64,000 bases of DNA from a virus. Taxonomy: Duplodnaviria; Heunggongvirae; Uroviricota; Caudoviricetes. Below are positions 4,415-48,265 of the stretch, piece by piece. The notes below the pieces were generated by a model. It made no database searches. It had not been told where the DNA came from and was given only the letters and a program-made list of their open reading frames with translations. The DNA lies in IMG/VR virus record IMGVR_UViG_3300047444_000753, positions 5,256-69,255 of that record. One strand, written 5' to 3'. The position numbers and the translations under genes are program-made. Numbering within the stretch: position 1 is the stretch's first letter; each line of letters starts with the position of its first letter.

Positions 4415-4488
4415 GCGCAGGTAGTTTCAATTGGTTAAAATAACGGTCTCCAAAACCGTGGTTATAGGTTCGAGTCCTATCCGGCGTG
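4415..4488 (+). tRNA. tRNA-Trp (CCA)
   Basis: Cloverleaf folds. Anticodon loop CTCCAAA, T-arm ATAGG/TTCGAGT/CCTAT, one acceptor-stem mismatch, no encoded CCA. Confidence 0.75.
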
Positions 4489-4505
4489 CTGTACAACTGA
4501 ATATG

Positions 4506-4514
4506 TGGTACAAT
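4506..4514 (+). promoter_or_regulatory. extended -10 element TGgTACAAT
   Basis: TGnTACAAT directly before tRNA-Pro. The same GGTACAAT motif recurs at 8383. Confidence 0.35.
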
Positions 4515-4526
4515 GTATAAACACCT

Positions 4527-4600
4527 CGGGGTGTAGCTCAGCTTGGTAGAGCGCCTGTTTTGGGAACAGGAAGTCGCAGGTTCAAATCCTGTCTCCCCGA
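4527..4600 (+). tRNA. tRNA-Pro (TGG)
   Basis: D-arm GCTC/GAGC, anticodon stem CCTGT/ACAGG with loop TTTGGGA, T-loop TTCAAAT. Confidence 0.85.
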
Positions 4601-4611
4601 CGCAGTACAAT

Positions 4612-4682
4612 GGGATATTAGCTCAATGGTAGAGTCTCTGTCTTCCAAACAGATTACGGGAGTTCGATCCTCCCATATCCCT
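4612..4682 (+). tRNA. tRNA-Gly (TCC)
   Basis: Acceptor GGGATAT/ATATCCC, anticodon loop CTTCCAA, T-loop TTCGATC. Confidence 0.85.
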
Positions 4683-4705
4683 CGATCTGAGAGTGAGTTG
4701 TTGAT

Positions 4706-5140
4706 TTGAAGACGTGTACGTCCTGTAACGAGTCCAAACCTTTGGATGAATTTCAGAAGCGGGCATCCGCAGCTGACGGGCACACCAGCAAATGTAAGGT
4801 TTGTAAACGAGCCTACGACAATGACCACTACCGGAACAATCCAGATAGACGAGCATATATACGGGTAAATTCAAGTACTCGACGGGAAGAAAATCGGCTT
4901 TGGCTGATTGAATACCTTAGGGATCATCCCTGTGTAGACTGCTCAGAATCTGATATAGTAGTACTAGAGTTCGACCACCAGCAGGACAAGTTGTATAATA
5001 TCTCTGATATGATCAACTCACACGGTTTGTCTCGCGTTCAGGAAGAAATCTCGAAGTGTCAGGTAAGATGTGCTAACTGTCACAAGAGAAAAACGGCCCG
5101 AGATTTTGGTTGGTTGAAAGCTATAGGTTTGCCTCAATAA
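4706..5140 (+). CDS. HNH homing endonuclease
   Basis: TTG start. HNH motifs CVDCSES...LEFDH...NISD...CANCH. AT-rich, sits between tRNAs, and its 3' end overlaps tRNA-Thr. Confidence 0.85.
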   Translation: MKTCTSCNESKPLDEFQKRASAADGHTSKCKVCKRAYDNDHYRNNPDRRAYIRVNSSTRREENRLWLIEYLRDHPCVDCSESDIVVLEFDHQQDKLYNISDMINSHGLSRVQEEISKCQVRCANCHKRKTARDFGWLKAIGLPQ

Positions 5141-5205
5141 CTCAGTTCGGCCAGAGTGTCTCCTTTGTAACGAGAAAGTCGGGGGTTCGAATCCCTCTTG
5201 AGGCT
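5131..5205 (+). tRNA. tRNA-Thr (TGT)
   Basis: Acceptor GCCTCAA/TTGAGGC, D-arm ACTC/GAGT, anticodon loop TTTGTAA with a 31-39 C·C mismatch, T-loop TTCGAAT. Confidence 0.7.
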
Positions 5206-5220
5206 CGAATAATTGAATAT

Positions 5221-5293
5221 GCCCTTGAAGCTCAGGTGGTAGAGCGCTGGTCTGAAGAACCAGAGGTTTCCGGTTCGACGCCGGAGAAGGGCA
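5221..5293 (+). tRNA. tRNA-Phe (GAA)
   Basis: Anticodon stem CTGGT/ACCAG with loop CTGAAGA. T-arm TCCGG/TTCGACG/CCGGA. Confidence 0.8.
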
Positions 5294-5329
5294 CGCTTAA
5301 GCAACAGCAACCCATCGATAGGAATTACC

Positions 5330-5485
5330 ATGGCAGGTCTAGACCCAAAGCTCCAAGGATCCCAGTACACCGAACGTACCGAGAACGCACGCATCGCACT
5401 CGTCAACCAGCAGACTGGTGAGTCCGTCGCGACCGAAAACTCGGAAAACAAGCGAATTAGCAAGGTAGCCAACAAGGGCCACTAG
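5330..5485 (+). CDS. small hypothetical protein (51 aa) inside the tRNA array
   Basis: ATG preceded by AGGAA; GC-rich third codon positions. Below the ORF-track size cut-off. Confidence 0.3.
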   Translation: MAGLDPKLQGSQYTERTENARIALVNQQTGESVATENSENKRISKVANKGH

Positions 5486-5536
5486 TCTCAGCTGAGATCA
5501 GGTCCGTTGGCTACACAGCCAGCGGGCCTTTTCTTT

Positions 5537-5607
5537 TCCCCGTTCGTCTAACGGCAGGACGCTGTCTTTTGGCGGCAGCTATCGAGGTTCGAATCCTTGA
5601 CGGGGAA
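5537..5607 (+). tRNA. tRNA-Gln (TTG)
   Basis: Anticodon stem CTGTC/GGCAG with loop TTTTGGC, T-loop TTCGAAT, acceptor TCCCCGT/ACGGGGA. Confidence 0.75.
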
Positions 5608-5621
5608 CGCAGTACATTTAG

Positions 5622-5692
5622 TCCGGTGTCGTATAGCGGCATTACGCTCCCCTCTGGAGGGAGTCACTGAGGTTCGAATCCTTGCACCGGAA
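5622..5692 (+). tRNA. tRNA-Gln (CTG)
   Basis: Paralogue of the preceding Gln tRNA. Anticodon stem CTCCC/GGGAG with loop CTCTGGA. Confidence 0.75.
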
Positions 5693-5795
5693 CGCAGCTT
5701 GTATTTTCTGGAAGACCTGTGTATGCTGATAACGGATAGGCATATGAACCGTCACCGGCCCTGAGGGGAAGCGTGGAATACAAGTCATCCGTTGC

Positions 5796-5869
5796 AGTCG
5801 CTTAGCTCAGTTGGTCAGAGCGCGTCCCTGATAAGGACGAGGTCGTGAGTTCAATTCTCACAGTGGCTA
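5796..5869 (+). tRNA. tRNA-Ile (GAT)
   Basis: D-arm GCTC/GAGC, anticodon stem CGTCC/GGACG with loop CTGATAA, T-loop TTCAATT. Confidence 0.85.
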
Positions 5870-5884
5870 CGTAGTAAGAAATAG

Positions 5885-5956
5885 GCTCCCGTCTATGTTG
5901 GTTTGGATCTCGGACTTTCAATCCGGGCTACGCCGGTTCAATTCCGGTCGGGAGTA
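5885..5956 (+). tRNA. tRNA-Glu (TTC)
   Basis: Anticodon stem TCGGA/TCCGG with loop CTTTCAA, T-loop TTCAATT, acceptor GCTCCCG/CGGGAGT. Confidence 0.75.
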
Positions 5957-5957
5957 C

Positions 5958-6080
5958 GGGCTGTAGCTCAAAGTAGAGCGCTTTGGATATCGGTAGTCAT
6001 GAATGCCGATGACCACCTTCAGGGTCGCTCCCTGAGGGTCTGTGAAAAGAAGATATTCTGGGGTAACGTCCAGACGGCCT
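5958..6080 (+). other. disrupted tRNA-like element (tRNA 5' and 3' portions separated by about 75 nt containing a 9-bp hairpin)
   Basis: 5' GGGCTGT + D-arm GCTC/GAGC at 5958–5979. A T-arm-like CTGGG/TCCAG and a 7/7-complementary 3' acceptor ACGGCCT at 6056–6080. No anticodon arm. Hairpin CCTTCAGGG/CCCTGAGGG at 6015–6037. Confidence 0.3.
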
Positions 6081-6086
6081 AACCAA

Positions 6087-6159
6087 GCTCCCTTGGACTA
6101 GCGGTAATGTCGCTTCCCTCTCACGGAAGAGATCACGGGTTCGAATCCCGTAGGGAGTA
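6087..6159 (+). tRNA. tRNA-Glu (CTC)
   Basis: Acceptor GCTCCCT/AGGGAGT, anticodon stem CTTCC/GGAAG with loop CTCTCAC, T-arm ACGGG/TTCGAAT/CCCGT. Confidence 0.75.
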
Positions 6160-6213
6160 CAGGGCATCTATGCCTGTAGTATGGGCTAACCCCTCAGAGG
6201 CAAAAATAGAAAT

Positions 6214-6300
6214 GGAAGTATGGCCGAGTGGTAAGGCAGCTGTCTTGAAAACAGTAGTCGGGTGTGAAAGCCCGCGTGGGTTCAATCCCTACTACTTCCG
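6214..6300 (+). tRNA. tRNA-Ser (TGA), type II
   Basis: Long variable arm. Anticodon stem GCTGT/ACAGT with loop CTTGAAA. Acceptor GGAAGTA/TACTTCC. Confidence 0.8.
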
Positions 6301-6342
6301 CTAGCTACAGGAGGGCCTAATGGGATGGGACCTGTAGCTTCT

Positions 6343-6411
6343 GGACGGGGCGCTGGGACGCACAGGAGTTTTACACACTCCTTCCGCAGGGATCGATACC
6401 CTGACCGTCTA
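6343..6411 (+). tRNA. tRNA-Val (TAC)-like with a defective or non-canonical D-arm (possible pseudogene)
   Basis: Perfect anticodon arm GGAGT/TTTACAC/ACTCC and T-arm CAGGG/ATCGATA/CCCTG; acceptor pairs 6 of 7. The D-stem cannot be formed. Confidence 0.4.
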
Positions 6412-6412
6412 C

Positions 6413-6493
6413 GCCTTGGTGTTGGAATGGTAGACATGCTGGCCTCAAAAGCCGGTGCCTTAGTGCGTGTGGGTTCGAGTCCCACCCGAGGTA
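6413..6493 (+). tRNA. tRNA-Leu (CAA), type II
   Basis: Anticodon stem CTGGC/GCCGG with loop CTCAAAA, long variable arm, T-arm GTGGG/TTCGAGT/CCCAC. Confidence 0.75.
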
Positions 6494-6504
6494 CGCAGTA
6501 TATT

Positions 6505-6577
6505 GGCCCAGTAACTCAGCGGTGAGAGTGCCACTCTTATAAGGTGGAAGTCGAGGGATCAACACCCTCTTGGGCCA
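6505..6577 (+). tRNA. tRNA-Ile (TAT) (AUA decoder) or Met-like
   Basis: Anticodon stem CCACT/GGTGG with loop CTTATAA. Unusual T-loop ATCAACA. Acceptor GGCCCAG/TTGGGCC. Confidence 0.55.
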
Positions 6578-6658
6578 CGCACGGACTTATTTGCTACGAC
6601 GTTGCTTATCGGATCCGGAAACAGTCTCAACCTGAGGCTGCGGTAAAAGCCCGCACCT

Positions 6659-6731
6659 GCCTTCATAGCTCAGTGGATAGAGCGCTTCGCTACGGACGAA
6701 GAGGCCGGGGGTTCGAATCCCTCTGAGGGCA
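6659..6731 (+). tRNA. tRNA-Arg (ACG)
   Basis: D-arm GCTC/GAGC, anticodon stem CTTCG/CGAAG with loop CTACGGA, T-loop TTCGAAT. Confidence 0.85.
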
Positions 6732-6742
6732 CGCTAGACAAT

Positions 6743-6827
6743 GGAGAGTAAACCCAGCAGGTGCTGTGGCTTTGATTGCTAATCAGATGGCGGGTAAAAC
6801 CGTGGGTTTCGAATACTCTGCTCTCCG
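6743..6827 (+). tRNA. tRNA-Ser (GCT)-like, type II, non-canonical (possibly degenerate)
   Basis: Acceptor GGAGAGT/GCTCTCC. Anticodon stem TTTGA/TCAGA with loop TTGCTAA. Long variable arm. The T-stem closes with T53-A61 and the 8–9 linker is extended. Confidence 0.35.
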
Positions 6828-6830
6828 CGC

Positions 6831-6858
6831 TTGACACAGGTCTAATCTGTGGTATAGT
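6831..6858 (+). promoter_or_regulatory. sigma70-like promoter TTGACA-16-TATAGT inside the tRNA array
   Basis: Consensus -35 and near-consensus -10, immediately upstream of tRNA-Leu(GAG). Confidence 0.6.
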
Positions 6859-6869
6859 AGAGTAACTAT

Positions 6870-6954
6870 GTCAGTGTGGCGGAATGGTAGACGCGCTAGC
6901 TTGAGGTGCTAGTGGGCTGAAATGCTCGTGTGGGTTCGACTCCCATCATTGATA
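6870..6954 (+). tRNA. tRNA-Leu (GAG), type II
   Basis: Anticodon stem CTAGC/GCTAG with loop TTGAGGT, long variable arm, T-arm GTGGG/TTCGACT/CCCAT. Confidence 0.8.
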
Positions 6955-6955
6955 C

Positions 6956-7038
6956 GCAGGTGTGGCGCAATTGGTGGACGCGTACGATTTAGGATCGTAT
7001 ACTTTGATACACTGTGGGTTCGAATCCCATCACCTGTA
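6956..7038 (+). tRNA. tRNA-Leu (TAG), type II
   Basis: Anticodon stem TACGA/TCGTA with loop TTTAGGA, T-arm GTGGG/TTCGAAT/CCCAT. Lies 1 nt after the previous tRNA. Confidence 0.8.
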
Positions 7039-7165
7039 CGCGGGAGTTCCTGCTCCCACTCCGATAAGTAGCTGAAGAATAAACAGGCGACTGAAACGTC
7101 GTAAATCTAATCGGTAACCGGGGAACAGTCGGCTTCAGCACCTGCAGACCCCGAAGTGCCGGTAT

Positions 7166-7236
7166 GGGTCTTTCGTTCAAAGGCAGGACCGCTGGCTTTT
7201 ACCCAGCAGATAGGGTTTCGAGATCCCTAGGACCCA
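7166..7236 (+). tRNA. tRNA-Lys (TTT)
   Basis: Anticodon stem GCTGG/CCAGC with loop CTTTTAC. Acceptor GGGTCTT/AGGACCC. T-arm slightly irregular. Confidence 0.65.
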
Positions 7237-7361
7237 CTCCCGATCAAAGCCTCTGCTTGCATGCTCAAATTCGATTGAAGTACGCCGTCTTCTAGTAACG
7301 GATCCCGGACTTCACGGACGCTGGTATACCGCTCGCGGCTCTTTGAAACCGTATACCATAT

Positions 7362-7434
7362 GCCCCCGTAGCTCAGAGGACAGAGCAGGACCCTTCTAAA
7401 GTCTTGGCCGTAGGTTCGAATCCTACCGGGGGCA
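7362..7434 (+). tRNA. tRNA-Arg (TCT)
   Basis: Acceptor GCCCCCG/CGGGGGC, D-arm GCTC/GAGC, anticodon loop CTTCTAA, T-arm GTAGG/TTCGAAT/CCTAC. Confidence 0.75.
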
Positions 7435-7435
7435 C

Positions 7436-15798: not shown

Positions 15799-15872
15799 CA
15801 CGGAGTGGGGAAGTTCGGTAACCCGTTGGGCTCATAACCCGAAGATCATCGGTTCAAATCCGATCTCCGTAA
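15799..15872 (+). tRNA. initiator tRNA-fMet (CAT)
   Basis: C1·A72 mismatch. Three consecutive G-C pairs in the anticodon stem (TTGGG/CCCGA), loop CTCATAA. T-arm ATCGG/TTCAAAT/CCGAT. Confidence 0.8.
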
Positions 15873-15888
15873 CGCAACAACTAAATAA

Positions 15889-15961
15889 TCCCCGGTAGCT
15901 CAGTTGGCAGAGCGCTTGACTGTTAATCAGGATGTCGCAGGATCGAGACCTGCCCGGGGAG
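15889..15961 (+). tRNA. tRNA-Asn (GTT)
   Basis: Acceptor TCCCCGG/CCGGGGA, D-arm GCTC/GAGC, anticodon stem CTTGA/TCAGG with loop CTGTTAA. Confidence 0.8.
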
Positions 15962-16042
15962 CGCAATTTAATGCCGCGAGGCCGTTAAACATCCCAACAG
16001 GAGTGGCGAACCCAATTCGCACAGCCGCTAGGACCGGCAACT

Positions 16043-16115
16043 GGGGAATTAGCTCATCTGGTAGAGCGCCTGCCTTGCAAGCAGGAGGCGAGCGGTTCAA
16101 GTCCGCTATTCTCCA
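16043..16115 (+). tRNA. tRNA-Ala (TGC)
   Basis: Anticodon stem CCTGC/GCAGG with loop CTTGCAA. T-arm AGCGG/TTCAAGT/CCGCT. Confidence 0.85.
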
Positions 16116-16244
16116 CAAACGCCCAGACACTTTCTTCGGGGGTAGTCTGGCGGGTCATTGCTTTGGCGAGGGAGAGATCCCCGAATGCTGCGGCACGCAA
16201 TGGCTAACCCACCCCCCATGTGGGTCGCGGCAAATGGGGATCTA

Positions 16245-16319
16245 GGCCCTGTGGTCCAGCTTGGAATGGACGCCTCCCTGTCACGGAGGAGATCGACGGT
16301 TCAAATCCGTTCAGGGTCG
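16245..16319 (+). tRNA. tRNA-Asp (GTC)
   Basis: Acceptor GGCCCTG/CAGGGTC, anticodon stem CCTCC/GGAGG with loop CTGTCAC. Confidence 0.8.
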
Positions 16320-16321
16320 CT

Positions 16322-16392
16322 GTGGCTATAGCTCAATGGTAGAGCGGCTGGTTGTGGTCCAGCATATGAGGGTTCAATTCCCTCTAGTCACC
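16322..16392 (+). tRNA. tRNA-His (GTG)
   Basis: Anticodon stem GCTGG/CCAGC with loop TTGTGGT. T-arm GAGGG/TTCAATT/CCCTC. Confidence 0.8.
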
Positions 16393-16393
16393 C

Positions 16394-19056: not shown

Positions 19057-19085
19057 TTGCACACTGATGTTTAGGTGTGTATAGT
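19057..19085 (+). promoter_or_regulatory. promoter TTGCAC-17-TATAGT
   Basis: Near-consensus -35 and -10. Upstream of the rIIA-like gene. Confidence 0.55.
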
Positions 19086-19124
19086 AGTTACTACAAGACA
19101 TACCAACGACAAAAGGACAAAGAA

Positions 19125-21260
19125 ATGATCATTGAGGCCAGCAAGAACGAAACCACCATCGTCTCCAACATCACTGTTGGCGAGGTGATCGAGATGACCG
19201 TCAGTGAAGCAGGCATGGCGTACGCAATGAGCGCGCTGTCCAACATGTACAACGACCCCAAGCTGGCAGTTATCCGTGAGTACTTCACGAATGCTCTGGA
19301 CTCCCACACCAAGGCCGGACAGACGGATCCGGTGCTGGTCAGCCTGCCGACCAACTACAACAAGATGTATGTTGTACAGGATTTCGGCGTCGGCATGGAC
19401 ATTGACACCATCCGGTCGGTCTACTCCAAGTACTGGGAGTCCACCAAGCGCGACTCGAACACCCAGATCGGCGCTTTCGGTCTTGGAGCCAAGTCGGCTC
19501 TGGCCATCGCCAACCAGTTCACGCTGGCCTCGGTAAAAGACGGTGTAAAGGTCACCGTGATCGTGCAGAAGGCAGGGGACGGTTCCGGCAAGCCTAAGAT
19601 GCTTGTGGTGTCCGCCATCGAAACCGATGAGCCCAACGGCGTCATGATCTCCATCCCGATCGATGACCCTTACACCTTCAACAACAAGGCCCGGGAATTC
19701 TTCCGCTTCGTGGATCCGGAACTGGTGCTCGTTGACGGCTACAAGCCCTCCTCGGTCTTCGATTCTGTGAAGCGTCTGGAGGACATCTCCGTCCCCGATG
19801 TAGACATCTACGTTGATCTGGACAACAGGTACGGCACCTCCTACGTCATCATGGGTCAGGTGGCCTACGCCCTGACCACCTCCAACATCGAAGAGGCTGC
19901 CGAGCGTCTGGGGATCTCCGCCAGCTACGAACTGCGCAGCATGCCGGTCTACTTCAAGGTCGGCATCGGCGATGTGAACCTGACCCCGAACCGCGAAGGC
20001 TTGCTCTTCGATGACAAGACCAACGCACTGATCGACTCCGTCATTGAAGCCTACTTGGAGACGGTCAAGAAGACGGCACAGGAGGAAATCGACGCGATCG
20101 AGAGCCGCTTCGATGTCTACTCGGTGGCCGAACGCTGGTCCGACCGTCTGGGTGTCAAGCTGGAATGGCGCGGGGAGAAAATCCGCACCAAGATCGGCAC
20201 GGCAGAGCCCTCCAGCACCATCAAGCGCACCTCATGGGACAAGTCCACCCACGGCAGCACGTACGATGTCAATGTCAAGGACCTCTCCACCAAGAAGATC
20301 ATCGTCACCGGCAAGCCGTTCGACAAGTACAAGCGGATGGCCAACTACATCACGGACTACTTGGCCATGATGGACATCAATAACGGTGCCAACTTCTACT
20401 TCCGCGAAAACTTGGATGAGCTGGACAACGAATGGGTTACCGAAAACCCGGCGTTCATCTTCGAGGACTTCGAGGATATGATCCAGCGCGTCAAGGACCA
20501 CCGGAAGGCCGAAAAGGCAGCTGCCAAGGCTCTGCTCCCGAAGGAGCTGCGGGACCGTCCGGCCAAGCTGGAGTACCCGGTGCTGGATATCGATGACAAA
20601 ACCCTCACCCGCACTGCCTACGACGCCATCCCTGCAGGATCCTTCTACATCCACGCTAATGATGTTGTGGACCCGGCAAAGCACAAGGACTTCTTCGAAG
20701 GCATCTACGCATCGCCCGGATACGTGGAATACCTGAAGGACATTGTGGGGGAGGGTGCAACGGTGGTCTTCATCTCCAAGGTCCGTTCGCTCGAATCCTT
20801 CAAGGCCCGCACAAAGGACATCCACGGCCTGCGTAGCATCCACGACGCCCTTCCTGATGTTCAGGAGCGCATCAACGAGCTCATGACCGATGATGTTCTG
20901 CGTGCCCGCAACCTGCGGCTCACACACACTGCTAACCGCAACCTCGCACGCCTCAGCCCCAAACTGATCGCGCAGATTCTGGATGACGAAGTGCGCGAAC
21001 AGCTGACCCCTGCGGACCCGGCACTGCTTGAGCAGGGTAACGCCGCTGTCTCGCTCTTCAGCTCCGTAATCCGCTTCGGTATCGCCCCGACCACCGTAAC
21101 ACTGCCGGAACTGGCAGAGGAGGCTGTGGAACTGGACACGTCGGATAAGTACCCGCTCACCGAGCTGCTCGGGATCTGGCCGAGCGAGGCTGCGCAGAAG
21201 GACATCATCCGCTACATGAACATGGTCTACACCGAGCAGTTGACACTTGTAGATGCATAA
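19125..21260 (+). CDS. rIIA: RIIA-like protein with N-terminal GHKL (HATPase_c) ATPase domain
   Basis: Bergerat-fold motifs: N-box EYFTNALDS, G1 DFGVGMD, G2 GAFGLGAKS. 711 aa (from ATG 19125), similar to T4 rIIA (725 aa). Followed by an rIIB-like gene. Confidence 0.7.
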   Translation: MIIEASKNETTIVSNITVGEVIEMTVSEAGMAYAMSALSNMYNDPKLAVIREYFTNALDSHTKAGQTDPVLVSLPTNYNKMYVVQDFGVGMDIDTIRSVYSKYWESTKRDSNTQIGAFGLGAKSALAIANQFTLASVKDGVKVTVIVQKAGDGSGKPKMLVVSAIETDEPNGVMISIPIDDPYTFNNKAREFFRFVDPELVLVDGYKPSSVFDSVKRLEDISVPDVDIYVDLDNRYGTSYVIMGQVAYALTTSNIEEAAERLGISASYELRSMPVYFKVGIGDVNLTPNREGLLFDDKTNALIDSVIEAYLETVKKTAQEEIDAIESRFDVYSVAERWSDRLGVKLEWRGEKIRTKIGTAEPSSTIKRTSWDKSTHGSTYDVNVKDLSTKKIIVTGKPFDKYKRMANYITDYLAMMDINNGANFYFRENLDELDNEWVTENPAFIFEDFEDMIQRVKDHRKAEKAAAKALLPKELRDRPAKLEYPVLDIDDKTLTRTAYDAIPAGSFYIHANDVVDPAKHKDFFEGIYASPGYVEYLKDIVGEGATVVFISKVRSLESFKARTKDIHGLRSIHDALPDVQERINELMTDDVLRARNLRLTHTANRNLARLSPKLIAQILDDEVREQLTPADPALLEQGNAAVSLFSSVIRFGIAPTTVTLPELAEEAVELDTSDKYPLTELLGIWPSEAAQKDIIRYMNMVYTEQLTLVDA

Positions 21261-21311: not shown

Positions 21312-22448
21312 ATGACAATGTTTTCCATGGCCGGTACGACTCCGGATCGCACCCTCTCGGTTATCTATGCCACTGGCGACACCGCCACCATCCCGGAATC
21401 GCACGACCGCTTCGAAGAGCTCCTTACCCTGCTCTTCTCGGGGGCCGAAGACGAAGAGGTCGGCGATCTCGTAGATGTGATGCTGGCTGTCACCAAGAGG
21501 ATGGCCCAGCTCTCCGAACGCGTCAGCATCCGTGGTCGCTCGGTCTACTTCGACGGAGACCAGCTGCGCGGCGAACTCGCTGACGTTCTCGTGGAGATCT
21601 TCGAGACCGGAAACCCAGAGTCCCTGCGCCCGGTGGTCAACTTCCTTGAGAAGGCCGCGACCAACCCATCCCGCCAGTCGGTCGATGACCTCTACCGCTG
21701 GATCACCAAGGGTGATCTCATCATCCACGAGGACGGCGACTTCCTTGCCTACAAGGGCACCCGCACCACGAAGGATGGAACCCGCACCTCGATCAACGAG
21801 GGAACGGCATTCGTGGACGGCGTGGAAGTCACCGGACACATCCCCAACCCGGACGGTGCTGTCGTCACGATGCCGCGTTCGGAGGTGGATGACAACTCCA
21901 TGGAAGGCTGCTCCACCGGACTGCACGCCGGTACTGCGGACTACGCGTTTGGATTCGCTTGGTCCGAGACGGTTCTGGTCAAGATCAACCCCCGTGACGT
22001 TGTGTCGGTCCCGACAGACTCCTCCAACCAGAAGCTGCGCGTCTGCCGCTACGTGGTTCAGGGCAAGGTCGAGGAGCGCCGCACCAGCCGGGTCTTCCGC
22101 GAGCCGGTTGCGGATGGGGTCACTGCGCCCCTGTTCACCGTGATCGGCTTCGACGTCTTCGATGCCAACGAAGATGACGGCGAGCTGGAGGTCGATGGGT
22201 CGATCGAAGAGTCCACGCTCGATGACTCGGTCCAGACTGACGAGGAGCGTCTGGCAAGCGAGGAGGCCCTTGCGGCTCTCCGCGAGAAGCTGCAGGATCT
22301 GCAGACTCCGCCGCAGAGCGAGGCCGAGGCAGAAGCTGAGGCCGAAGCTGCCGAAAAGGTCATCCGTGACGCCAAGGGCCGCTTCACCAGCGAGAGCGCG
22401 GCGAAGGCAGTCCGCAACGCCAAGGGACAGTTTACAAGGCAGTCCTAG
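21312..22448 (+). CDS. rIIB: RIIB-like protein
   Basis: Follows the rIIA-like gene. Acidic EAEAEA C-terminal tail. AAAGGA RBS. Confidence 0.55.
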   Translation: MTMFSMAGTTPDRTLSVIYATGDTATIPESHDRFEELLTLLFSGAEDEEVGDLVDVMLAVTKRMAQLSERVSIRGRSVYFDGDQLRGELADVLVEIFETGNPESLRPVVNFLEKAATNPSRQSVDDLYRWITKGDLIIHEDGDFLAYKGTRTTKDGTRTSINEGTAFVDGVEVTGHIPNPDGAVVTMPRSEVDDNSMEGCSTGLHAGTADYAFGFAWSETVLVKINPRDVVSVPTDSSNQKLRVCRYVVQGKVEERRTSRVFREPVADGVTAPLFTVIGFDVFDANEDDGELEVDGSIEESTLDDSVQTDEERLASEEALAALREKLQDLQTPPQSEAEAEAEAEAAEKVIRDAKGRFTSESAAKAVRNAKGQFTRQS

Positions 22449-43897: not shown

Positions 43898-44185
43898 ATG
43901 ACTGCACTGCGCGGCGACAAAATCGAATCACTCCTCTGGGAAAACGGATTCGAGGTACGACACAGACTGCAGCTTCAGGGGCCATCCGAGGTAGAGGTGT
44001 TCGCCGACTCCTTTTCGATCATTCTCGGTGAGACATGGGTCGAAGACGGCGACTGGATGCTGGACGGGTTCTCCACCTACTACGAATGTGTTCAGGGCGG
44101 GGAAGTGTTTGACATGGGCTATCTCGATGACGCCCACACGGAAGATGATCTGGTGGCGCGGATCGTGGAGATAGGGGAACGATGA
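43898..44185 (+). CDS. hypothetical protein
   Basis: ATG 43898; an alternative TTG at 43868 exists. Confidence 0.5.
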   Translation: MTALRGDKIESLLWENGFEVRHRLQLQGPSEVEVFADSFSIILGETWVEDGDWMLDGFSTYYECVQGGEVFDMGYLDDAHTEDDLVARIVEIGER

Positions 44186-44188
44186 GTC

Positions 44189-44362
44189 ATGGTGCTCTTC
44201 AGCAGGGAAACGAAGCGTCTCCGAGCTAGGCGCAACCAACTTCAAGCCGAGGTCTACGGCCTTGCCTCACGAGAGAGGCGGCTTGCGGACCAGCTCCGCA
44301 AGCTCGCCCAGCGGGAGGACATGCTGCGGGCTGACAAGACTGAGATGGATGATGGAGACTGA
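44189..44362 (+). CDS. small coiled-coil protein (57 aa)
   Basis: Overlaps both neighbours. Charged heptad-like sequence. Confidence 0.35.
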   Translation: MVLFSRETKRLRARRNQLQAEVYGLASRERRLADQLRKLAQREDMLRADKTEMDDGD

Positions 44363-44546
44363 CTTCAGCGACGGGCAGACGTTCCGGTTCCACCGCTTCG
44401 GCGTGGGGCCGGACATCTATGTCGCCATCAGGCAAAACTCGCTCTGGAGCGTTACTCTAGAGGGGAACACCAACCTGTGGATGTGCTGGCTGATCAATGA
44501 TGCAGGCGTTCGGGATCGGTGTTGGGACTACCGCTTGACAGACTGA
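44349..44546 (+). CDS. hypothetical protein (65 aa)
   Basis: ATG-ATG start. Confidence 0.5.
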   Translation: MMETDFSDGQTFRFHRFGVGPDIYVAIRQNSLWSVTLEGNTNLWMCWLINDAGVRDRCWDYRLTD

Positions 44547-44604
44547 CTCAATGTGGCCTATTGTATATATTACAAGTCAACCACTGAGACAAAGGAGCAA
44601 GACA

Positions 44605-44967
44605 ATGACCGAGACCCAGATTCAGACACAGGCCGAGATCGCCCTCGCGGAAGAACTCGAAGCAGCACGGCAGGAAGGTGCCGAGCCGATCAGCGCTGAA
44701 ATCCTCGAACTCGTGGAGCGCTACCGTGAACTCAACAAGCTCATGGCCCCATTCAAGGTCGAGCAGGATGCGATCAAGGAACTGGTCATTGACCTGATGC
44801 ACAAGGACCACGTCAAGACCCTGACCCTCAACGGCGTTCCTCAGGTCGAGCTCGTCAAGGCCACCCGCCAGAAGACGGACACCAAGGCCCTCGCTGCGGA
44901 TCTGCCGGAGGTCTACGCCGCCTACGTCTCCACCACCACCTACGAGCGCTTCGACGCGAAGAAGTAG
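44605..44967 (+). CDS. hypothetical protein (120 aa)
   Basis: AAAGGAG RBS. Confidence 0.7.
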   Translation: MTETQIQTQAEIALAEELEAARQEGAEPISAEILELVERYRELNKLMAPFKVEQDAIKELVIDLMHKDHVKTLTLNGVPQVELVKATRQKTDTKALAADLPEVYAAYVSTTTYERFDAKK

Positions 44968-44969
44968 TC

Positions 44970-45116
44970 GTGGCTGAACTAACCAACGCACAGGTAGCCC
45001 TGCAGGCTGCGGTAGCAACCTACGCCGAAGTCTCAGGGACCTACCTATCCACCTCCACAATCATTAATCGGGCCGATGAGTTCAAGAAGTGGCTCGACAA
45101 GAAGGACAGAGAATGA
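44970..45116 (+). CDS. small hypothetical protein (48 aa)
   Basis: GTG start after the previous stop. Its stop overlaps the macro gene start (ATGA). Confidence 0.35.
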   Translation: MAELTNAQVALQAAVATYAEVSGTYLSTSTIINRADEFKKWLDKKDRE

Positions 45117-45613
45117 CATTCGAAATCATCCAAGGGGATCTGTTTGATCCCGACCACGACTTCACCGCCATCGCTCAGGGCGTGAACTGTCAGGGCGTCA
45201 TGGGTGCCGGGATAGCCGTTCCTTTCCGTCTACGCTATCCGGAGATGTACGAGGAATATAAGGCCCTCTGCAGCACCAATAAGCACCTCCTGCCGGGAAC
45301 TGTTCATTCGTACATGGTAGACCAGTCGGACAGCCGACCCGATGTGTTCAATCTCTTCACGCAGTTCCAGCCGGGGAGTAATGGGGACTACGCCTATCTT
45401 GAGCAGGCCATCTACAATATGAAGAATGCCATCGCAATGACCAAGAGTGTGTTTCACATCATCTACGGGCAGTCCCTGCCGTACCGGGTGGGCATGCCTT
45501 GGATCGGCTGCGGCATTGCGGGTCTGGAGAAGCACAACGTGGAGCACATTCTGCGCTGGCACCTGACCGATTCTGTGGACGAATTCGTCCTCGTAGAGCA
45601 GCCAACAGTGTAA
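45113..45613 (+). CDS. macro-domain (ADP-ribose binding/processing) protein
   Basis: IIQGDLF...AIAQGVNCQGVMGAGIA signature of the macro / Appr-1-p fold. Confidence 0.75.
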   Translation: MTFEIIQGDLFDPDHDFTAIAQGVNCQGVMGAGIAVPFRLRYPEMYEEYKALCSTNKHLLPGTVHSYMVDQSDSRPDVFNLFTQFQPGSNGDYAYLEQAIYNMKNAIAMTKSVFHIIYGQSLPYRVGMPWIGCGIAGLEKHNVEHILRWHLTDSVDEFVLVEQPTV

Positions 45614-45716
45614 GTTGCATTCTCCTGCTGGAGATGTTAGAATTACATTGTTGGTCAAACAACAGAGAACAGGGCGTTTGTCTCCTTTAGTCCTGCTGTT
45701 GGGCGCATAGCGCCGG

Positions 45717-45771
45717 GTCCCCGTAGTTGAGCGGTTGTTGGTACCATAAGCTCCTACGGGGATCTTTTTTG
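45717..45771 (+). terminator. terminator (8-bp stem, large loop, T6 tail)
   Basis: TCCCCGTA ... TACGGGGA, then TCTTTTTTG. Confidence 0.55.
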
Positions 45772-45780
45772 CCCAAAACC

Positions 45781-45809
45781 TTGACTACACACATACAAAG
45801 CTGTACACT
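45781..45809 (+). promoter_or_regulatory. promoter TTGACT-17-TACACT
   Basis: Upstream of the HTH gene. Confidence 0.55.
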
Positions 45810-45831
45810 ACTAAAAGCGAAAGGATATCGA

Positions 45832-46170
45832 ATGCCCAAGGTCGATCTAGCAATTCCCAGCAATAGGGTACGAGTAAACATCGGTGGCGTCTCTTACTGG
45901 CGTGAGCCTGAGAAGGTCACCGTTCGTGTCCCGTCGCGCATGGGACCTATGCGCCTGTTCATGGGCGAGGTCCTGCGGGAAGAGCGGAAGGCTCAGGGAA
46001 AGAGTCTCCGGGACATCGACGGCATTGCCCTCGGGTTCGTGTCGGAGATCGAGCGCGGAATCAAGGAGCCCTCCAGTGAAGTACTGGAAACGTTCTGCAA
46101 GAACCTTGATCTGGACCTTGTGGAAGCCCTTCGCCGAACCGCTGACAAAATCGAAACCGCACGTATTTAA
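45832..46170 (+). CDS. XRE-family helix-turn-helix transcriptional regulator
   Basis: HTH region SLRDIDGIALGFVSEIERG. AAAGGA RBS. Confidence 0.7.
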   Translation: MPKVDLAIPSNRVRVNIGGVSYWREPEKVTVRVPSRMGPMRLFMGEVLREERKAQGKSLRDIDGIALGFVSEIERGIKEPSSEVLETFCKNLDLDLVEALRRTADKIETARI

Positions 46171-46181
46171 AGGATAGTCTT

Positions 46182-46382
46182 TTGGAAAAAGTGTACTACA
46201 GCAACGTCCTGATCCCGAAGCAACTGGACTGGAGGTTTGAGGCCACCCACCTGATCGAAGACATCATGGCCGGGTTCCGGCTGGTCAACACCACCCGTTC
46301 CGGTAACTGGGTGGTCCAGATTTCCTCGGCGGAAAAGAAGAACCTCAAGAAGATTCTTGATCGAGCGATCGAGAAATACTAA
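46182..46382 (+). CDS. hypothetical protein (66 aa)
   Basis: TTG start with AAGGAT RBS. Confidence 0.5.
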   Translation: MEKVYYSNVLIPKQLDWRFEATHLIEDIMAGFRLVNTTRSGNWVVQISSAEKKNLKKILDRAIEKY

Positions 46383-46537
46383 TGCCCGAGGATCCGGCAC
46401 TGGTATTCTTCAACCAAGCCAACCGGACAGCACACGAGAACTGGGATTTTGATGTCACCGGATACCTCCAGCGGTCGGCGACTGACCTCTACAACGCGCT
46501 TGCGAGGTCGGCACGAGAGCTGGACGAAACAGCGTAA
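46382..46537 (+). CDS. small hypothetical protein (51 aa)
   Basis: ATG overlaps the previous stop. Confidence 0.4.
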   Translation: MPEDPALVFFNQANRTAHENWDFDVTGYLQRSATDLYNALARSARELDETA

Positions 46538-46540
46538 AGA

Positions 46541-46575
46541 AAAATCCCCCGTCAATCACTGGCGGGGGATCTCTC
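46541..46575. terminator. bidirectional terminator
   Basis: Stem ATCCCCCG/CGGGGGAT between convergent genes. Confidence 0.65.
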
Positions 46576-48012
46576 TTAGCGTCTGCGTATGGATGGCCTG
46601 TGTGGCTGCGTACGCCCTGTTGCCAGTCCTGTGGGTAGTTTACGGTGCGCTGCGGAAGTAGTGGACACCTTACCCACTTTGAGCTCCTTAGGCGGCGTCA
46701 CGAGGGTTGCAATGACGCCCCAGACAAACGCGTCCATCCTGTCCGGAGAATAGGTCGAGTTGGCCGGGTCGAAGAACAGTAGCTGCTCCTCTAGCGTCGG
46801 CATGTAGTCCACGAACCTGACACGCTTCTGCTGCATGGCAATCACGACAGGTTCCGCACGGACGGTCTTACCCTTGACGGCGACCACCAGCATGACCTTC
46901 AGGGTCGGATCGACGGCATTGATCGCCATCTGCAGGAGCTGTCCGCCCTGATTCTTCTCCACGACAACGAACTTGGTGCGGTGCGCTTCGGCGGCATCGA
47001 CAACCTGCTTGGCCCAGATATCCGGCGAGGCACGCAGCGAGTAGTCACCCAGCACGTAGGCACGGCGGCGGGAGAGGTCACGCTCGGCTGTGGCACCGAT
47101 GGCAATGATGCCGCACTCGTCGGCTGCGGACGGATCGCCGGAGACGGACGGATCCACGGCGATGATGCGCAGCGGCAGGTTCGGCACGATCTCGTTGTCC
47201 AGAAGACGCGCATCGTCAATCATGCTCTGCTTGAAGACCAGACCTTCGGCGTCGTCCAGCATCTGCCCGTAGAGCTCCTGCTTGGCGAGATCCGAGTTGC
47301 CGTATCTGCGGACAAGGTTTTCGATGTACAGGTTGGACAGCGAGGTGTTATCGAAGGTGGAGCCACGGATGATGTTGATGCGCTCCTTGGGGTCCTGAGA
47401 GAGCTTCATCAGATCCTGCATGACCTTGGTACGCTTGGGCGTCGTGGCAAGCAGGATCTGCGGATTCTGCCCCAGACGGGTGGCAGCGATCATGTTGGAG
47501 TACAGCGTGGCACCGGAGGAGTCCACGGTGGTCTTCCACGCCGCAAACTCGTCCCCAACCGAAAAGTGGAACTGCGGACCACGGGCGGAGTCGGGGGATT
47601 CCGAGGACAATAGTAGGGCACTGGAGCCGTTAGGCCAGTGCAGGGAGGTGGTGGACGGCTTGTACTCTGGCATCTCGGACGGCGAGTGCACGGACATGAC
47701 GCCGGACTCTCCAGTGATCACGGTACTTCGGTGGTCGGCGGCACGACGGGCGGCAATGCCGATACGGCAGCCCGGGTTTTCCAAGGCCTTGCGCTTAATC
47801 CAGTGGGCGATGGCCAGCGTCTTTCCGAAACCACGACCAGCGACAAGGGCGGTAATTCCCCAGTCACCGTCAGGAATCATCTGCTCTGGACGCAGCCAGA
47901 ATTTGGCGTCGAACTGCAGATTGGCCGCGTCTTCCATTGATAGTTCATTAAGAACTTCGAGACGCTGTGCCTCCGGCAGTTCGGCTAGTTGTTCAGCTAG
48001 GGATTTTCCCAT
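46576..48012 (-). CDS. terminase large subunit
   Basis: Walker A-like GRGFGKT, ATPase and nuclease blocks. 478 aa from ATG 48012, with AAGAAGG RBS. Confidence 0.85.
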   Translation of the reverse strand: MGKSLAEQLAELPEAQRLEVLNELSMEDAANLQFDAKFWLRPEQMIPDGDWGITALVAGRGFGKTLAIAHWIKRKALENPGCRIGIAARRAADHRSTVITGESGVMSVHSPSEMPEYKPSTTSLHWPNGSSALLLSSESPDSARGPQFHFSVGDEFAAWKTTVDSSGATLYSNMIAATRLGQNPQILLATTPKRTKVMQDLMKLSQDPKERINIIRGSTFDNTSLSNLYIENLVRRYGNSDLAKQELYGQMLDDAEGLVFKQSMIDDARLLDNEIVPNLPLRIIAVDPSVSGDPSAADECGIIAIGATAERDLSRRRAYVLGDYSLRASPDIWAKQVVDAAEAHRTKFVVVEKNQGGQLLQMAINAVDPTLKVMLVVAVKGKTVRAEPVVIAMQQKRVRFVDYMPTLEEQLLFFDPANSTYSPDRMDAFVWGVIATLVTPPKELKVGKVSTTSAAHRKLPTGLATGRTQPHRPSIRRR

Positions 48013-48265
48013 GGGGAGCCTTCTTTGTAGACAAAGGCTCGACAAGCAGGAACAGGGCGGACGGGCCGAGATCCTTCTGGTGTGCAAGTAGCTGGTCCGC
48101 TACGTCAACCGGGAGCCCCTGTGGCAGTGTGGGGGATAGCCGGTGCAGGCACTCGTTTTCCGGGAAATGTTCGTTGGTAATCGACGTTGCAATTTCTGCA
48201 AGTCGCGCCGTTCCGGGGTCTTCCGCCAGAAGAAATGTCGCACCGTGGTATGTAGAATTCGTCAT
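47993..48265 (-). CDS. hypothetical protein overlapping the terminase start (small-terminase candidate)
   Basis: 90 aa. GGAGT immediately abuts the ATG (no spacer), so ribosome-binding support is weak. Ends 20 nt inside the terminase gene. Confidence 0.4.
   Translation of the reverse strand: MTNSTYHGATFLLAEDPGTARLAEIATSITNEHFPENECLHRLSPTLPQGLPVDVADQLLAHQKDLGPSALFLLVEPLSTKKAPHGKIPS

What the first reader, a model, noticed from the sequence alone, without database searches (positions are those of the whole stretch)
45113..45613. Stand-alone macro-domain protein: candidate anti-defence ADP-ribose processing enzyme
The 166-aa protein has the GDLF...AIA.GVNCQGVMGAGIA signature of macro domains, which bind or hydrolyse ADP-ribose and its derivatives. 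In a phage this could reverse DarT-type DNA ADP-ribosylation, remove protein ADP-ribosylation, or hydrolyse or sequester ADPR-derived immune signals of the Thoeris type. It is translationally coupled to a small upstream ORF and is followed by a terminator, a promoter and an XRE-type HTH gene.
Basis: partly seen in the sequence, partly recalled or inferred. Interest (0 to 1): 0.65.

Follow-up and report, generated by a model that had tools for sequence, protein, structure and literature searches.

The report
Phage Tk.4/Adpp-type macrodomain hydrolase
The 166-residue protein is a genuine macrodomain enzyme from a large phage family whose two tested members defeat ADP-ribose/NAD-based bacterial defences, so it is a credible counter-defence gene but an ordinary new member of a known kind.

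Summary
The ORF at 45113-45613 (+) is real. It passes the Pfam Macro threshold. Its AlphaFold2 model (pLDDT 93.9) superposes on DarG, Poa1p and TARG1 macrodomains. It belongs to PHROG 335; about 1,800 of 50,697 phage records hold a tblastn homologue. Two relatives have been tested. T4 Tk.4 ("AdfM") is needed to resist DarTG2. Vibrio phage Gary Adpp dephosphorylates ADPR-1''-phosphate so that NARP1 can rebuild NAD+ against aRES. The query shares their motifs (FNLFTQFQPG, IGCGIAG). Like them it has Gln where DarG and TARG1 have the catalytic Lys. Its closest relatives outside its own lineage lie 3-5 kb upstream of Adps+Namat (NARP1) in Mimi-like actinophages. Here the gene sits between the replication genes and a reversed terminase. 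No NARP1 is present in the 83.5 kb of the contig that could be read. The contig covers only about half of a Mimi-like genome, so NARP1 elsewhere is not excluded. The most likely chemistry is hydrolysis at ribose C1'': ADPR-1''-P about 0.45, DarT2-modified DNA about 0.3. It is a new member of a known kind. In passing: the 160-nt spacer after the gene is 94-95% conserved, against 58-71% for the gene, and shows compensatory changes. It is a candidate small RNA.

The parts
45113..45613 (+). Macrodomain gene, 166 aa. Gln-type member of the phage Tk.4/Adpp family (PHROG 335).
   Evidence: Residues invariant in 53 homologues: N25, G31, G33, N80, F82, Q84 and G132-C133-G134.
44970..45116 (+). Conserved 48-aa ORF of unknown function. 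Its TGA overlaps the macro ATG (ATGA).
   Evidence: tblastn finds it at 54% in L038 and 57% in L044. In L003, L049 and L050 it is called with the same 4-nt overlap. It has no Pfam hit.
45615..45643 (+). Possible promoter directly after the macro stop codon: TTGCAT-17-TAGAAT. It would drive the structured RNA below. This is inferred only.
   Evidence: Read from the sequence. In relatives the -10 varies as TAGAAT, TATGAT, TAGTAT or TAAAAT, keeping TANNAT. It falls below the scan's threshold.
45650..45770 (+). Conserved structured intergenic RNA element: candidate small RNA of about 120 nt, or a structured 3' end. It contains a CU-rich apical loop GUUUGUCUCCUUUA (45676-45689), a GGCGC-AUA-GCGCC hairpin (45702-45714) and a terminal terminator hairpin (45715-45764) followed by T6 (45765-45770).
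   Evidence: The MFE z-score is -3.45. RNAalifold predicts 47 pairs, 6 of them with compensatory double changes. The 45614-45775 spacer that contains it is 94-95% identical at nucleotide level to three relatives, against 58-71% for the macro CDS. It occurs only in this phage lineage. There is no Rfam match.
45781..45809 (+). Sigma-70-like promoter TTGACT-17-TACACT in front of the XRE gene.
   Evidence: The TTGAC -35 box is invariant and the -10 keeps TA..A.T in the four relatives aligned.
45832..46170 (+). XRE/Cro-type HTH gene, 112 aa. It is a separate transcription unit downstream. It is context, not shown to act with the macrodomain.
   Evidence: Pfam HTH_3 at 25.2 bits against a gathering score of 23. 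The same gene follows the macro gene in L038, L044 and L048.

Best explanation
The gene encodes a catalytically competent, single-domain macrodomain of the phage Tk.4/Adpp family (PHROG 335, 'Poa1p-like', Gln-type).

Mechanism: it binds the ADP-ribose moiety in the canonical cleft, formed by N25, the G31-x-G33-I-A loop and the G132-C-G-I-A-G loop. It then hydrolyses whatever is attached to C1'' of the distal ribose. It is expressed with the replication and early genes and serves as a counter-defence enzyme.

Most likely substrate (p about 0.45): ADP-ribose-1''-phosphate, the product of RES-domain NAD+ phosphorolysis (aRES or MbcT-type). Conversion to ADP-ribose lets a phage Adps/Namat pathway (NARP1) rebuild NAD+.

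Close second (p about 0.3): DarT2-type ADP-ribosyl-thymidine on phage ssDNA, as inferred for T4 Tk.4. The two are not exclusive.

Shown: the fold, family membership, conservation of the pocket residues, and the gene contexts. Inferred: the enzyme activity, the substrate and the biological role.
For: Fold and family:
- Pfam Macro is above threshold. The AF2 model has pLDDT 93.9. The best PDB fold matches are Poa1p, DarG and TARG1 with ADP-ribose.
- PHROG 335 holds the query (2e-38), T4-like Tk.4 (1e-71), Gary Adpp (1e-49), the Pseudomonas phage PN09 macrodomain protein and Mimi gp63.
- The query shares FNL[FY]TQFQPGxNxxY with T4 Tk.4 and IGCGIAG with the T4-like ime09 Tk.4 (T4 itself has IGAGIG). 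It is 29% identical to T4 Tk.4, E 3e-14. The equivalent motifs in Gary Adpp are NVYGQY and IGCGLAGG.
- Active-site residues are invariant in 53 homologues.

Tested relatives:
- Purified Gary Adpp converts ADPR-1P to ADPR and is required for NARP1-AP to overcome aRES (bioRxiv 10.64898/2026.01.28.702374).
- A clean T4 tk.4 knockout is sensitive to DarTG2 (bioRxiv 10.1101/2025.11.20.689424).

Context:
- The closest relatives outside the window's own lineage lie 3-5 kb upstream of Adps+Namat on the same strand. These are P0003/L041 (65% identical), Mimi gp63 (54.6%), 9 of the 10 closest IMG/VR loci, and P0049/L045.
- Those neighbouring genes are homologous to experimentally validated Adps and Namat (E 1e-15 to 1e-132).
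- In the NJ tree the query is sister to the NARP1-linked P0003.
Against: - No Adps, Namat, Nampt or Nmnat gene is present in contig positions 2574-86134. That is 83.5 of 97.5 kb, reaching about 55 kb upstream and 28 kb downstream of the gene. Six lineage-mates (54-66% identical) keep the gene at this NARP1-free site. An ADPR-1P phosphatase without NARP1 has no obvious benefit, which favours the DarT2 reading.
- Caveat to that point: the phage is Mimi-like (terminase 64-65% identical; colinear with Mimi 122-145 kb). In Mimi, NARP1 lies next to the portal gene, a region this contig does not cover.
- The His found in Poa1p (H23), TARG1, Tk.4 and Adpp is Gln22 here.
- T4 Tk.4 and Adpp are only 26-29% identical to the query.
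- The Tk.4 evidence is genetic only, and both key papers are preprints.
- No activity was measured here.
Confidence: 0.75

Rival explanations
1. Anti-DarT2 factor, like T4 Tk.4 ('AdfM'). The enzyme removes ADP-ribose from thymidine on phage single-stranded DNA made by a DarT2 toxin of the actinobacterial host, and so restores replication. It would do this with Gln84 in place of the catalytic lysine of DarG.
For: - T4 Tk.4 shares the FNLxTQFQPG motif, and its T4-like ime09 homologue also the IGCGIAG motif (T4 itself has IGAGIG). Its knockout sensitises T4 to DarTG2.
- T4, like this contig, has the gene without adjacent NARP1. In the tree Tk.4 is nested among NARP1-linked Adpp proteins, the same pattern as here.
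- The PADLOC DarG model matches the query at 3e-19, better than it matches Tk.4 (5e-7).
- The best sequence match in PDB is the M. tuberculosis DarG macrodomain, 2.5e-16 with the family profile.
- The gene lies at the end of the replication module: D5-like helicase/primase and a RecE-C-like gene.
- Six lineage-mates retain it at a site with no NARP1 nearby.
Against: - The lysine essential in DarG2 (K80), and kept in the biochemically proven phage enzyme PhiKZ AdfM (K78), is Gln here.
- No biochemical proof exists that any Gln-type macrodomain cleaves thymidine-linked ADP-ribose.
- The closest relatives are NARP1-linked.
- There is no DarT-binding domain.
Confidence: 0.3
2. Eraser of ADP-ribose on proteins or RNA. 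It would reverse a host ART defence such as CmdT-type mRNA ADP-ribosylation, or tune the phage's own ADP-ribosyltransferases.
For: Macrodomains of the TARG1/MacroD kind do this in other systems (established knowledge; PMC9503650). TARG1 is a fold and profile match.
Against: - No ART, Sir2 or similar gene was seen in 83.5 kb of the contig.
- TARG1 K84 and D125 are both replaced (Q84, A136).
- No family member has been shown to do this.
Confidence: 0.1
3. Hydrolase or sponge for ADPR-derived immune signals: Thoeris 2'cADPR/3'cADPR or His-ADPR.
For: Macrodomains bind ADPR derivatives, and some ThsA effectors use a macrodomain to sense the signal (PMC11204291, listed).
Against: - No homology to Tad1 or Tad2 was seen.
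- The known phage enzyme that degrades these signals is a RyR-domain protein, not a macrodomain (PMC13232231).
- No family member has been tested on these signals.
- Invariant catalytic-loop residues argue for an enzyme rather than a sponge.
Confidence: 0.06
4. Housekeeping Poa1p-like role: clearing ADPR-1''-phosphate produced by Tpt1/KptA during repair or splicing of the phage's many tRNAs.
For: Poa1p is the top Foldseek hit. The phage carries 28 tRNA genes. The related phage Mimi has RNA ligase and polynucleotide kinase genes.
Against: No Tpt1/KptA or 2H phosphoesterase family was recorded in the contig. Poa1p residues H23, S30 and F152 are not conserved (Q22, V29, A136).
Confidence: 0.04

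Closest known systems
T4 Tk.4 ('AdfM' of the HIDEN-SEQ preprint, bioRxiv 10.1101/2025.11.20.689424)
   Same: Same PHROG (335). Single-domain protein of about 155-166 aa. Nearly identical motif FNL[FY]TQFQPGxNxxY, with the IGCGIAG loop shared with the T4-like ime09 Tk.4. Gln at the DarG/TARG1 lysine position. Stand-alone gene among early genes with no adjacent NARP1.
   Different: Only 29% identical. Tk.4 has His where the query has Gln22. The host is Gram-negative. The anti-DarTG2 role of Tk.4 is shown genetically only.
Adpp, the ADPR-1''-phosphate phosphatase of NARP1-AP (Vibrio phage Gary gp137; bioRxiv 10.64898/2026.01.28.702374)
   Same: Same PHROG. Motifs N-x-[YF]-x-Q and IGCG[IL]AG. The query's closest relatives are linked to Adps+Namat as Adpp is.
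   Different: 26% identical. Adpp lies within two genes of Adps/Namat. Here no NARP1 is present in the 83.5 kb read, and in Mimi-like relatives the spacing is 3-5 kb. His becomes Gln22.
DarG2 antitoxin macrodomain (M. tuberculosis 5M3I, T. aquaticus 5M3E) and PhiKZ AdfM gp104 (PMC13309987)
   Same: Best sequence match in PDB (2.5e-16 with the family profile). TM-score 0.81/0.88. The Asn of the first loop (N25, equivalent to DarG N22) is conserved.
   Different: The catalytic Lys (K80, or K78 in AdfM) is Gln84. There is no C-terminal DarT-binding domain and no neighbouring DarT.
Yeast Poa1p (6LFQ-6LFU), ADP-ribose-1''-phosphate phosphatase
   Same: Top Foldseek hit (E 8.6e-13). It also lacks the Lys at the TARG1 K84 position. 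Same overall size.
   Different: 23% identical. The residues H23, S30 and F152, which were mutated in the deposited Poa1p structures, are Q22, V29 and A136 here.
Human TARG1/OARD1 (4J5S)
   Same: ALC1-like macrodomain class. Profile E 5e-16. The GCG loop is conserved.
   Different: The catalytic pair K84/D125 is replaced by Q84/A136.

Membership tests
Macro domain superfamily (Pfam PF01661) | Profile match above the curated threshold | tested here: met
   25.3 bits against a gathering score of 22, E 1.5e-5, covering residues 23-146.
Macro domain superfamily (Pfam PF01661) | Alpha/beta macro fold with the ADP-ribose cleft loops (Asn of loop 1, the GxG loop, and the second Gly-rich loop) | tested here: met
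   AF2 pLDDT 93.9. TM 0.76-0.88 to ADP-ribose-bound Poa1p, DarG and TARG1. N25, G31, G33 and G132-C-G134 are invariant.
Phage Tk.4/Adpp family (PHROG 335) | Profile match, together with both experimentally studied members matching the same profile | tested here: met
   Query 2e-38. T4-like Tk.4 1e-71, Gary Adpp 1e-49, PN09 5e-55, Mimi gp63 7e-31.
Phage Tk.4/Adpp family (PHROG 335) | Gln-type motif N-[LV]-[FY]-x-Q and I-G-[CA]-G-[IL]-[AG]-G | tested here: met
   FNLFTQ and IGCGIAG are present. Q84 is invariant in 53 homologues.
NARP1-AP pathway (Adps-Adpp-Namat) | Macrodomain gene encoded with Adps and Namat (the authors used within two genes) | tested here: not met
   No Adps or Namat homologue is present in contig 2574-86134. 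The feature is met at 3-5 kb in the closest relatives L041, Mimi, L009-L017 and L045. The rest of the genome is unseen.
NARP1-AP pathway (Adps-Adpp-Namat) | ADPR-1''-phosphate phosphatase activity | not testable with these tools
   Needs an LC-MS assay with purified protein.
DarG2 antitoxin / AdfM of PhiKZ (Lys-type) | Catalytic lysine (Taq DarG K80, PhiKZ AdfM K78, TARG1 K84) | tested here: not met
   HMMER alignments to 5M3I and 4J5R place Gln84 at this position. It is Gln in all 53 homologues.
DarG2 antitoxin / AdfM of PhiKZ (Lys-type) | C-terminal DarT-binding domain and an adjacent DarT gene (for DarG2 itself) | tested here: not met
   The protein is 166 aa and matches only positions 3-145 of the 329-position PADLOC DarG model. 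The neighbours are a 48-aa ORF and an XRE gene.
Anti-DarT factor (functional class, T4 Tk.4 type) | Protects the phage from DarTG2 or removes DarT2 ADP-ribose from DNA | not testable with these tools
   Needs a toxicity-rescue assay and an oligonucleotide de-ADP-ribosylation assay.
Poa1p (yeast) orthologue | Conservation of H23, S30 and F152, the residues mutated in the deposited structures | tested here: not met
   The alignment gives Q22, V29 and A136 at these positions.
TARG1 | Catalytic pair K84 and D125 | tested here: not met
   The alignment gives Q84 and A136.

The most novel reading that the evidence does not exclude
The actinophage 'double-Gln' macrodomains (Gln22 and Gln84) might be NARP1-independent erasers that cleave DarT2-type thymidine-ADP-ribose, or another C1''-linked adduct, without the catalytic lysine. 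That would be a new catalytic solution. In this lineage the gene might also form a unit with the unusually conserved small RNA of about 120 nt immediately downstream, which might regulate it or the neighbouring XRE gene.
Probability: 0.15. Interest if true: 0.55.

Novelty: new member of a known kind. Interest (0 to 1): 0.3.

Why it matters
It adds an actinophage branch to a family for which two different counter-defence roles were reported only in 2025-2026. The branch has Gln at both position 22 and position 84. It occurs both next to NARP1 and, in this lineage, far from it.

That makes it a convenient natural test of an open question. Can one Gln-type macrodomain serve both NAD+ reconstitution (ADPR-1''-P) and reversal of DNA ADP-ribosylation (DarT2)? 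Or has the substrate switched between the two contexts? Actinobacteria carry both RES/MbcT-type NAD+ phosphorylases and DarTG2.

The practical consequence is modest. The gene is a sensible candidate for anti-defence screens, but it is not a new kind of system.

Tried and rejected
1. I first took the missing DarG/TARG1 lysine (Gln84) as evidence against DarT reversal. I rejected that argument because T4 Tk.4, which is genetically required against DarTG2, has the same Gln motif.

2. I first took the absence of NARP1 from the contig as absence from the phage. I withdrew that claim. The terminase and gene order show a Mimi-like phage of about 190 kb, and its portal-proximal NARP1 region is not covered by the 97.5-kb contig.

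3. Megablast of 44000-47000 against the phage collection gave no match.

4. The simple terminator scan found nothing because of its loop limit. Folding and alignment replaced it.

5. Rfam, at gathering and at permissive thresholds, gave no family for the intergenic element.

6. Exact-pattern scans for the element found only the one related contig in IMG/VR and nothing in metagenome contigs.

7. A search of IMG/VR with the 560-aa helicase/primase gave only one contig. I therefore could not intersect lineage contigs with Namat-bearing contigs.

8. Isoelectric point as a clue to a DNA substrate was uninformative: query 5.05, Tk.4 5.03, Adpp 7.8.

9. A toxin-antitoxin reading of the macro + XRE pair was rejected. 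The two are separate transcription units, no toxin-like partner is present, and the pair is conserved in an apparently lytic phage lineage with no close copy in bacterial genomes.

10. Literature searches for further AdfM or Adpp studies found none.

Full report
**1. The observation**

The ORF at 45113-45613 (+) encodes 166 aa beginning MTFEIIQGDLFDPDHDFTAIAQGVNCQGVMGAGIA. Its ATG overlaps the TGA of a 48-aa ORF at 44970-45116 (ATGA).

The Met at 45113 is invariant in 53 homologues, so the upstream GTG at 45089 is not the start.

The evidence that the protein is a macrodomain is as follows.
- It passes the Pfam Macro gathering threshold, 25.3 against 22 bits.
- It matches PHROG 335 ('phosphatase') at 2e-38.
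- With a 53-sequence alignment it gives an AlphaFold2 model of pLDDT 93.9 and pTM 0.89.
- Foldseek against PDB returns Poa1p with ADP-ribose (E 8.6e-13), T. aquaticus DarG macrodomain (TM 0.81/0.88, rmsd 2.2 A), M. tuberculosis DarG, and TARG1.
- The BFVD viral library returns phage macrodomain proteins, including a tk.4 product.

The macro fold is therefore confirmed.

The downstream features are also real.
- A long GC-rich hairpin at 45715-45764 is followed by T6. The simple scan missed it because of its loop limit. Folding gives z = -3.45.
- A TTGACT-17-TACACT promoter lies at 45781-45809.
- The next gene, 45832-46170, is an HTH_3 protein.

**2. Where the window comes from**

The window is positions 12237-76236 of a 97.5-kb metagenomic contig, Logan SRR26075503_25820. 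Tiling the contig from 2574 to 86134 shows the following:
- DNA polymerase A, ThyX, ribonucleotide reductase, MazG and 28 tRNA genes
- rIIA/rIIB-like genes, a RecA-like gene and WhiB
- a DEAD helicase, a primase and a D5-like 560-aa protein
- the macro gene, followed by a terminase large subunit on the minus strand

The terminase is 64-65% identical to that of Arthrobacter phages Mimi, Atuin, Racecar and Talia1610, which have genomes of 192-194 kb. The contig is colinear with Mimi 122-145 kb. No portal or capsid gene was seen. The contig therefore seems to cover only about half of a Mimi-like genome.

**3. What family the protein belongs to**

A tblastn search finds homologues in 1,822 of 50,697 phage records. 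These include T-even tk.4 genes annotated 'phosphatase'. PHROG 335 holds the query, T4-like Tk.4, Vibrio phage Gary Adpp, the Pseudomonas phage PN09 macrodomain and Mimi gp63.

Two members have experimental support.
- T4 tk.4 was the single hit of a transposon screen on a DarTG2 host. A clean knockout is DarTG2-sensitive. The authors named it AdfM and inferred DNA de-ADP-ribosylation (bioRxiv 10.1101/2025.11.20.689424).
- Purified Gary Adpp converts ADPR-1''-phosphate to ADPR. ADPR-1''-phosphate is the product of the RES-domain defence aRES. The conversion lets the Adps/Namat pathway (NARP1) rebuild NAD+ (bioRxiv 10.64898/2026.01.28.702374).

A separate phage macrodomain, PhiKZ gp104 (also called AdfM), removes DarT2 ADP-ribose from DNA in vitro. 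It keeps the DarG residues N23 and K78 (PMC13309987).

**4. Active-site comparison**

Profile alignment to PDB sequences ranks M. tuberculosis DarG (2.5e-16), TARG1 (5e-16), T. aquaticus DarG (2e-13) and Poa1p (3e-8). It also fixes the residue equivalences.

| Position in query | Equivalent in known enzymes |
|---|---|
| N25 | DarG N22 (conserved) |
| Q84 | TARG1 K84 / DarG K80 (invariant Gln in the query family) |
| A136 | TARG1 D125 / Poa1p F152 |
| Q22 | Poa1p H23 (TARG1, Tk.4 and Adpp also have His here) |

The missing lysine does not argue against an anti-DarT role. T4's own Tk.4 reads FNLYTQFQPGPNFEY, against FNLFTQFQPGSNGDY in the query. Gary Adpp reads FNVYGQY. The family is therefore a 'Gln-type' branch of the TARG1/DarG/Poa1p class.

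Lys-type, TARG1-like macrodomains also occur in viral contigs and in Paenibacillus genomes. Gln-type ones also occur in Chloroflexota, Planctomycetota, Myxococcota and some actinomycetes, at no more than 41% identity to the query. No close copy lies in any reference bacterial genome, so the query clade appears phage-specific.

**5. Gene context in relatives**

Two contexts exist.

(A) The window's own lineage. This comprises L038/P0007, L044/P0011, L046 (= L008), L048/P0004 and L049/P0006, with macro proteins 54-66% identical to the query. It always shows the order: D5-like helicase, small genes, 48-aa ORF, macro, spacer, XRE, 66 aa, 51 aa, terminase on the minus strand.

(B) Mimi-like and other large actinophages. 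Here the macro gene lies 3-5 kb upstream, on the same strand, of a Prs-like gene and a Nampt-like gene. This holds for Mimi gp63/gp68/gp70, for 9 of the 10 closest IMG/VR loci, for L041 (P0003, 65% identical and the query's sister in the NJ tree) and for L045.

The context-B neighbours are homologous to the experimentally validated Adps and Namat of phages Gary and SPbetaL1 (E 1e-15 to 1e-132). The window and the rest of the readable contig have no such hit, and no Nmnat hit either. In Mimi this macro-NARP1 block lies just upstream of the portal gene, a region the present contig does not reach.

It follows that 'no NARP1 nearby' is shown, but 'no NARP1 in the phage' is not.

**6. Most likely mechanism**

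The invariant cleft residues, the confident fold and purifying selection in two contexts argue for an active hydrolase that cleaves the substituent on ribose C1''.

I give about 0.45 to ADPR-1''-phosphate. This is the only biochemically shown activity of a Gln-type member, and it fits the context of the closest relatives.

I give about 0.3 to DarT2-type ADP-ribosyl-thymidine on ssDNA. This reading rests on four points:
- T4 Tk.4 shows the same pattern, a stand-alone copy nested among NARP1-linked ones.
- The gene sits at the end of the replication module.
- Six lineage-mates retain it at a NARP1-free site.
- The DarG model scores 3e-19.

The two roles may coexist. Protein or RNA de-ADP-ribosylation, Thoeris-signal processing and an RNA-repair by-product role have no specific support.

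**7. Novelty and verdict**

Macrodomains are reported as the commonest ADPr-processing domain in phages: about 40% of medium-sized and 56% of jumbo phages (PMC9503650). The query's family already has two described counter-defence roles.

The finding is therefore correct but ordinary: a new member of a known kind. Three wrinkles are modestly interesting.
- The branch has Gln at both position 22 and position 84.
- The gene is displaced from NARP1 in this lineage.
- The published survey of NARP1-associated macrodomains used a two-gene window, and its table lists no Arthrobacter phage. It therefore did not capture the 3-5 kb linkage seen in Mimi-like actinophages.

**8. Seen in passing: the spacer after the macro gene**

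The spacer at 45614-45775 is 94-95% identical at nucleotide level to three lineage-mates. Their macro CDS is 58-71% identical and their XRE CDS 67-86% identical.

RNAalifold predicts 47 pairs, 6 with compensatory double changes. Examples:
- A-U becomes G-C in the terminator stem of L038.
- CAGGGC/GUCCUG becomes CAGGAU/AUCCUG in L048.
- A whole stem is replaced in L044.

A possible promoter, TTGCAT-17-TAGAAT, lies right after the macro stop codon. Its -10 box varies within TANNAT. The apical loop GUUUGUCUCCUUUA is conserved and CU-rich.

The element is single-copy. It is found only in this lineage and has no Rfam match. It is a candidate small RNA of about 120 nt, or a structured 3' end, and may deserve its own follow-up.

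Noticed in passing
window 45614-45775 (+): The intergenic element after the macro gene is far more conserved than the flanking genes: 94-95% nucleotide identity, against 58-71% for the macro CDS. It has a multi-hairpin consensus structure with 6 compensatory pairs, a CU-rich conserved loop, a terminal terminator and a possible promoter of its own. There is no Rfam match. It is a candidate small RNA of about 120 nt, found only in this phage lineage.
   Followed up: partly
window 4415-24452 (+): There are 28 tRNA genes, most of them in two arrays at 4415-7435 and 15799-16393. They cover 19 of the 20 amino acids (no tRNA-Tyr). ARAGORN and Rfam agree.
   Followed up: no
window 46576-48087 (-), and the whole window: The terminase large subunit lies alone on the minus strand among plus-strand genes. 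It is 64-65% identical to that of Arthrobacter phages Mimi, Atuin, Racecar and Talia1610 (about 193 kb). The window is colinear with Mimi 122-145 kb. No portal or capsid gene was seen in 83.5 kb, so the 97.5-kb source contig is probably only about half of the genome.
   Followed up: partly
L001 6001-6492 (Arthrobacter phage Mimi gp63, MN234211.2 26091-26582): The closest cultured-phage homologue (54.6% identical) is annotated 'ADP-ribosyltransferase'. It is a macrodomain, that is a hydrolase or eraser fold, so the annotation is probably wrong.
   Followed up: yes
L001, L009-L017, L041, L045: In Mimi-like actinophages the macro gene lies 3-5 kb (about 5-9 genes) upstream of Adps+Namat (NARP1), just before the portal gene. 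The published survey used a window of two genes either side, and its table lists no Arthrobacter phage, so this linkage was not captured there.
   Followed up: partly
L045 13125-13508: A YAcAr (SLOG-family, PF10686) gene lies between the macro gene and Adps/Namat in one relative. A vWA-TerF-like gene follows Namat. This looks like an extended NAD/ADPR-themed neighbourhood.
   Followed up: no
L026 2860-4911: A Lys-type (TARG1-like) viral macrodomain lies near a Nampt-like gene and a weak Nmnat-like hit. This is a possible NARP2-type neighbourhood.
   Followed up: no
window 19077-21260 and 21312-22448 (+): An HATPase_c_3 protein (711 aa as called; the open frame from the GTG at 19077 is 727 aa; I read it as rIIA-like) and a Phage_T4_rIIB-family protein sit side by side in an actinophage.
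   Followed up: no
window 2427-3221 (+): A NUMOD3 (homing-endonuclease-type) gene is inserted between the large and small ribonucleotide reductase subunit genes.
   Followed up: no
L043 10706-10987 (contig 76630-76911, just beyond the window end): A 93-aa protein has a weak hit to Nlig-Ia, the NMN-binding Ia domain of NAD+-dependent DNA ligase. It is another possible NAD-related small protein.
   Followed up: no
window 44617-44964 (+): The gene upstream of the 48-aa ORF matches the C-terminal part of PHROG 434 ('RecE-like recombination exonuclease', 4.5e-9). It corresponds to Mimi gp201. The segment between this gene and the terminase differs between Mimi and this lineage.
   Followed up: partly
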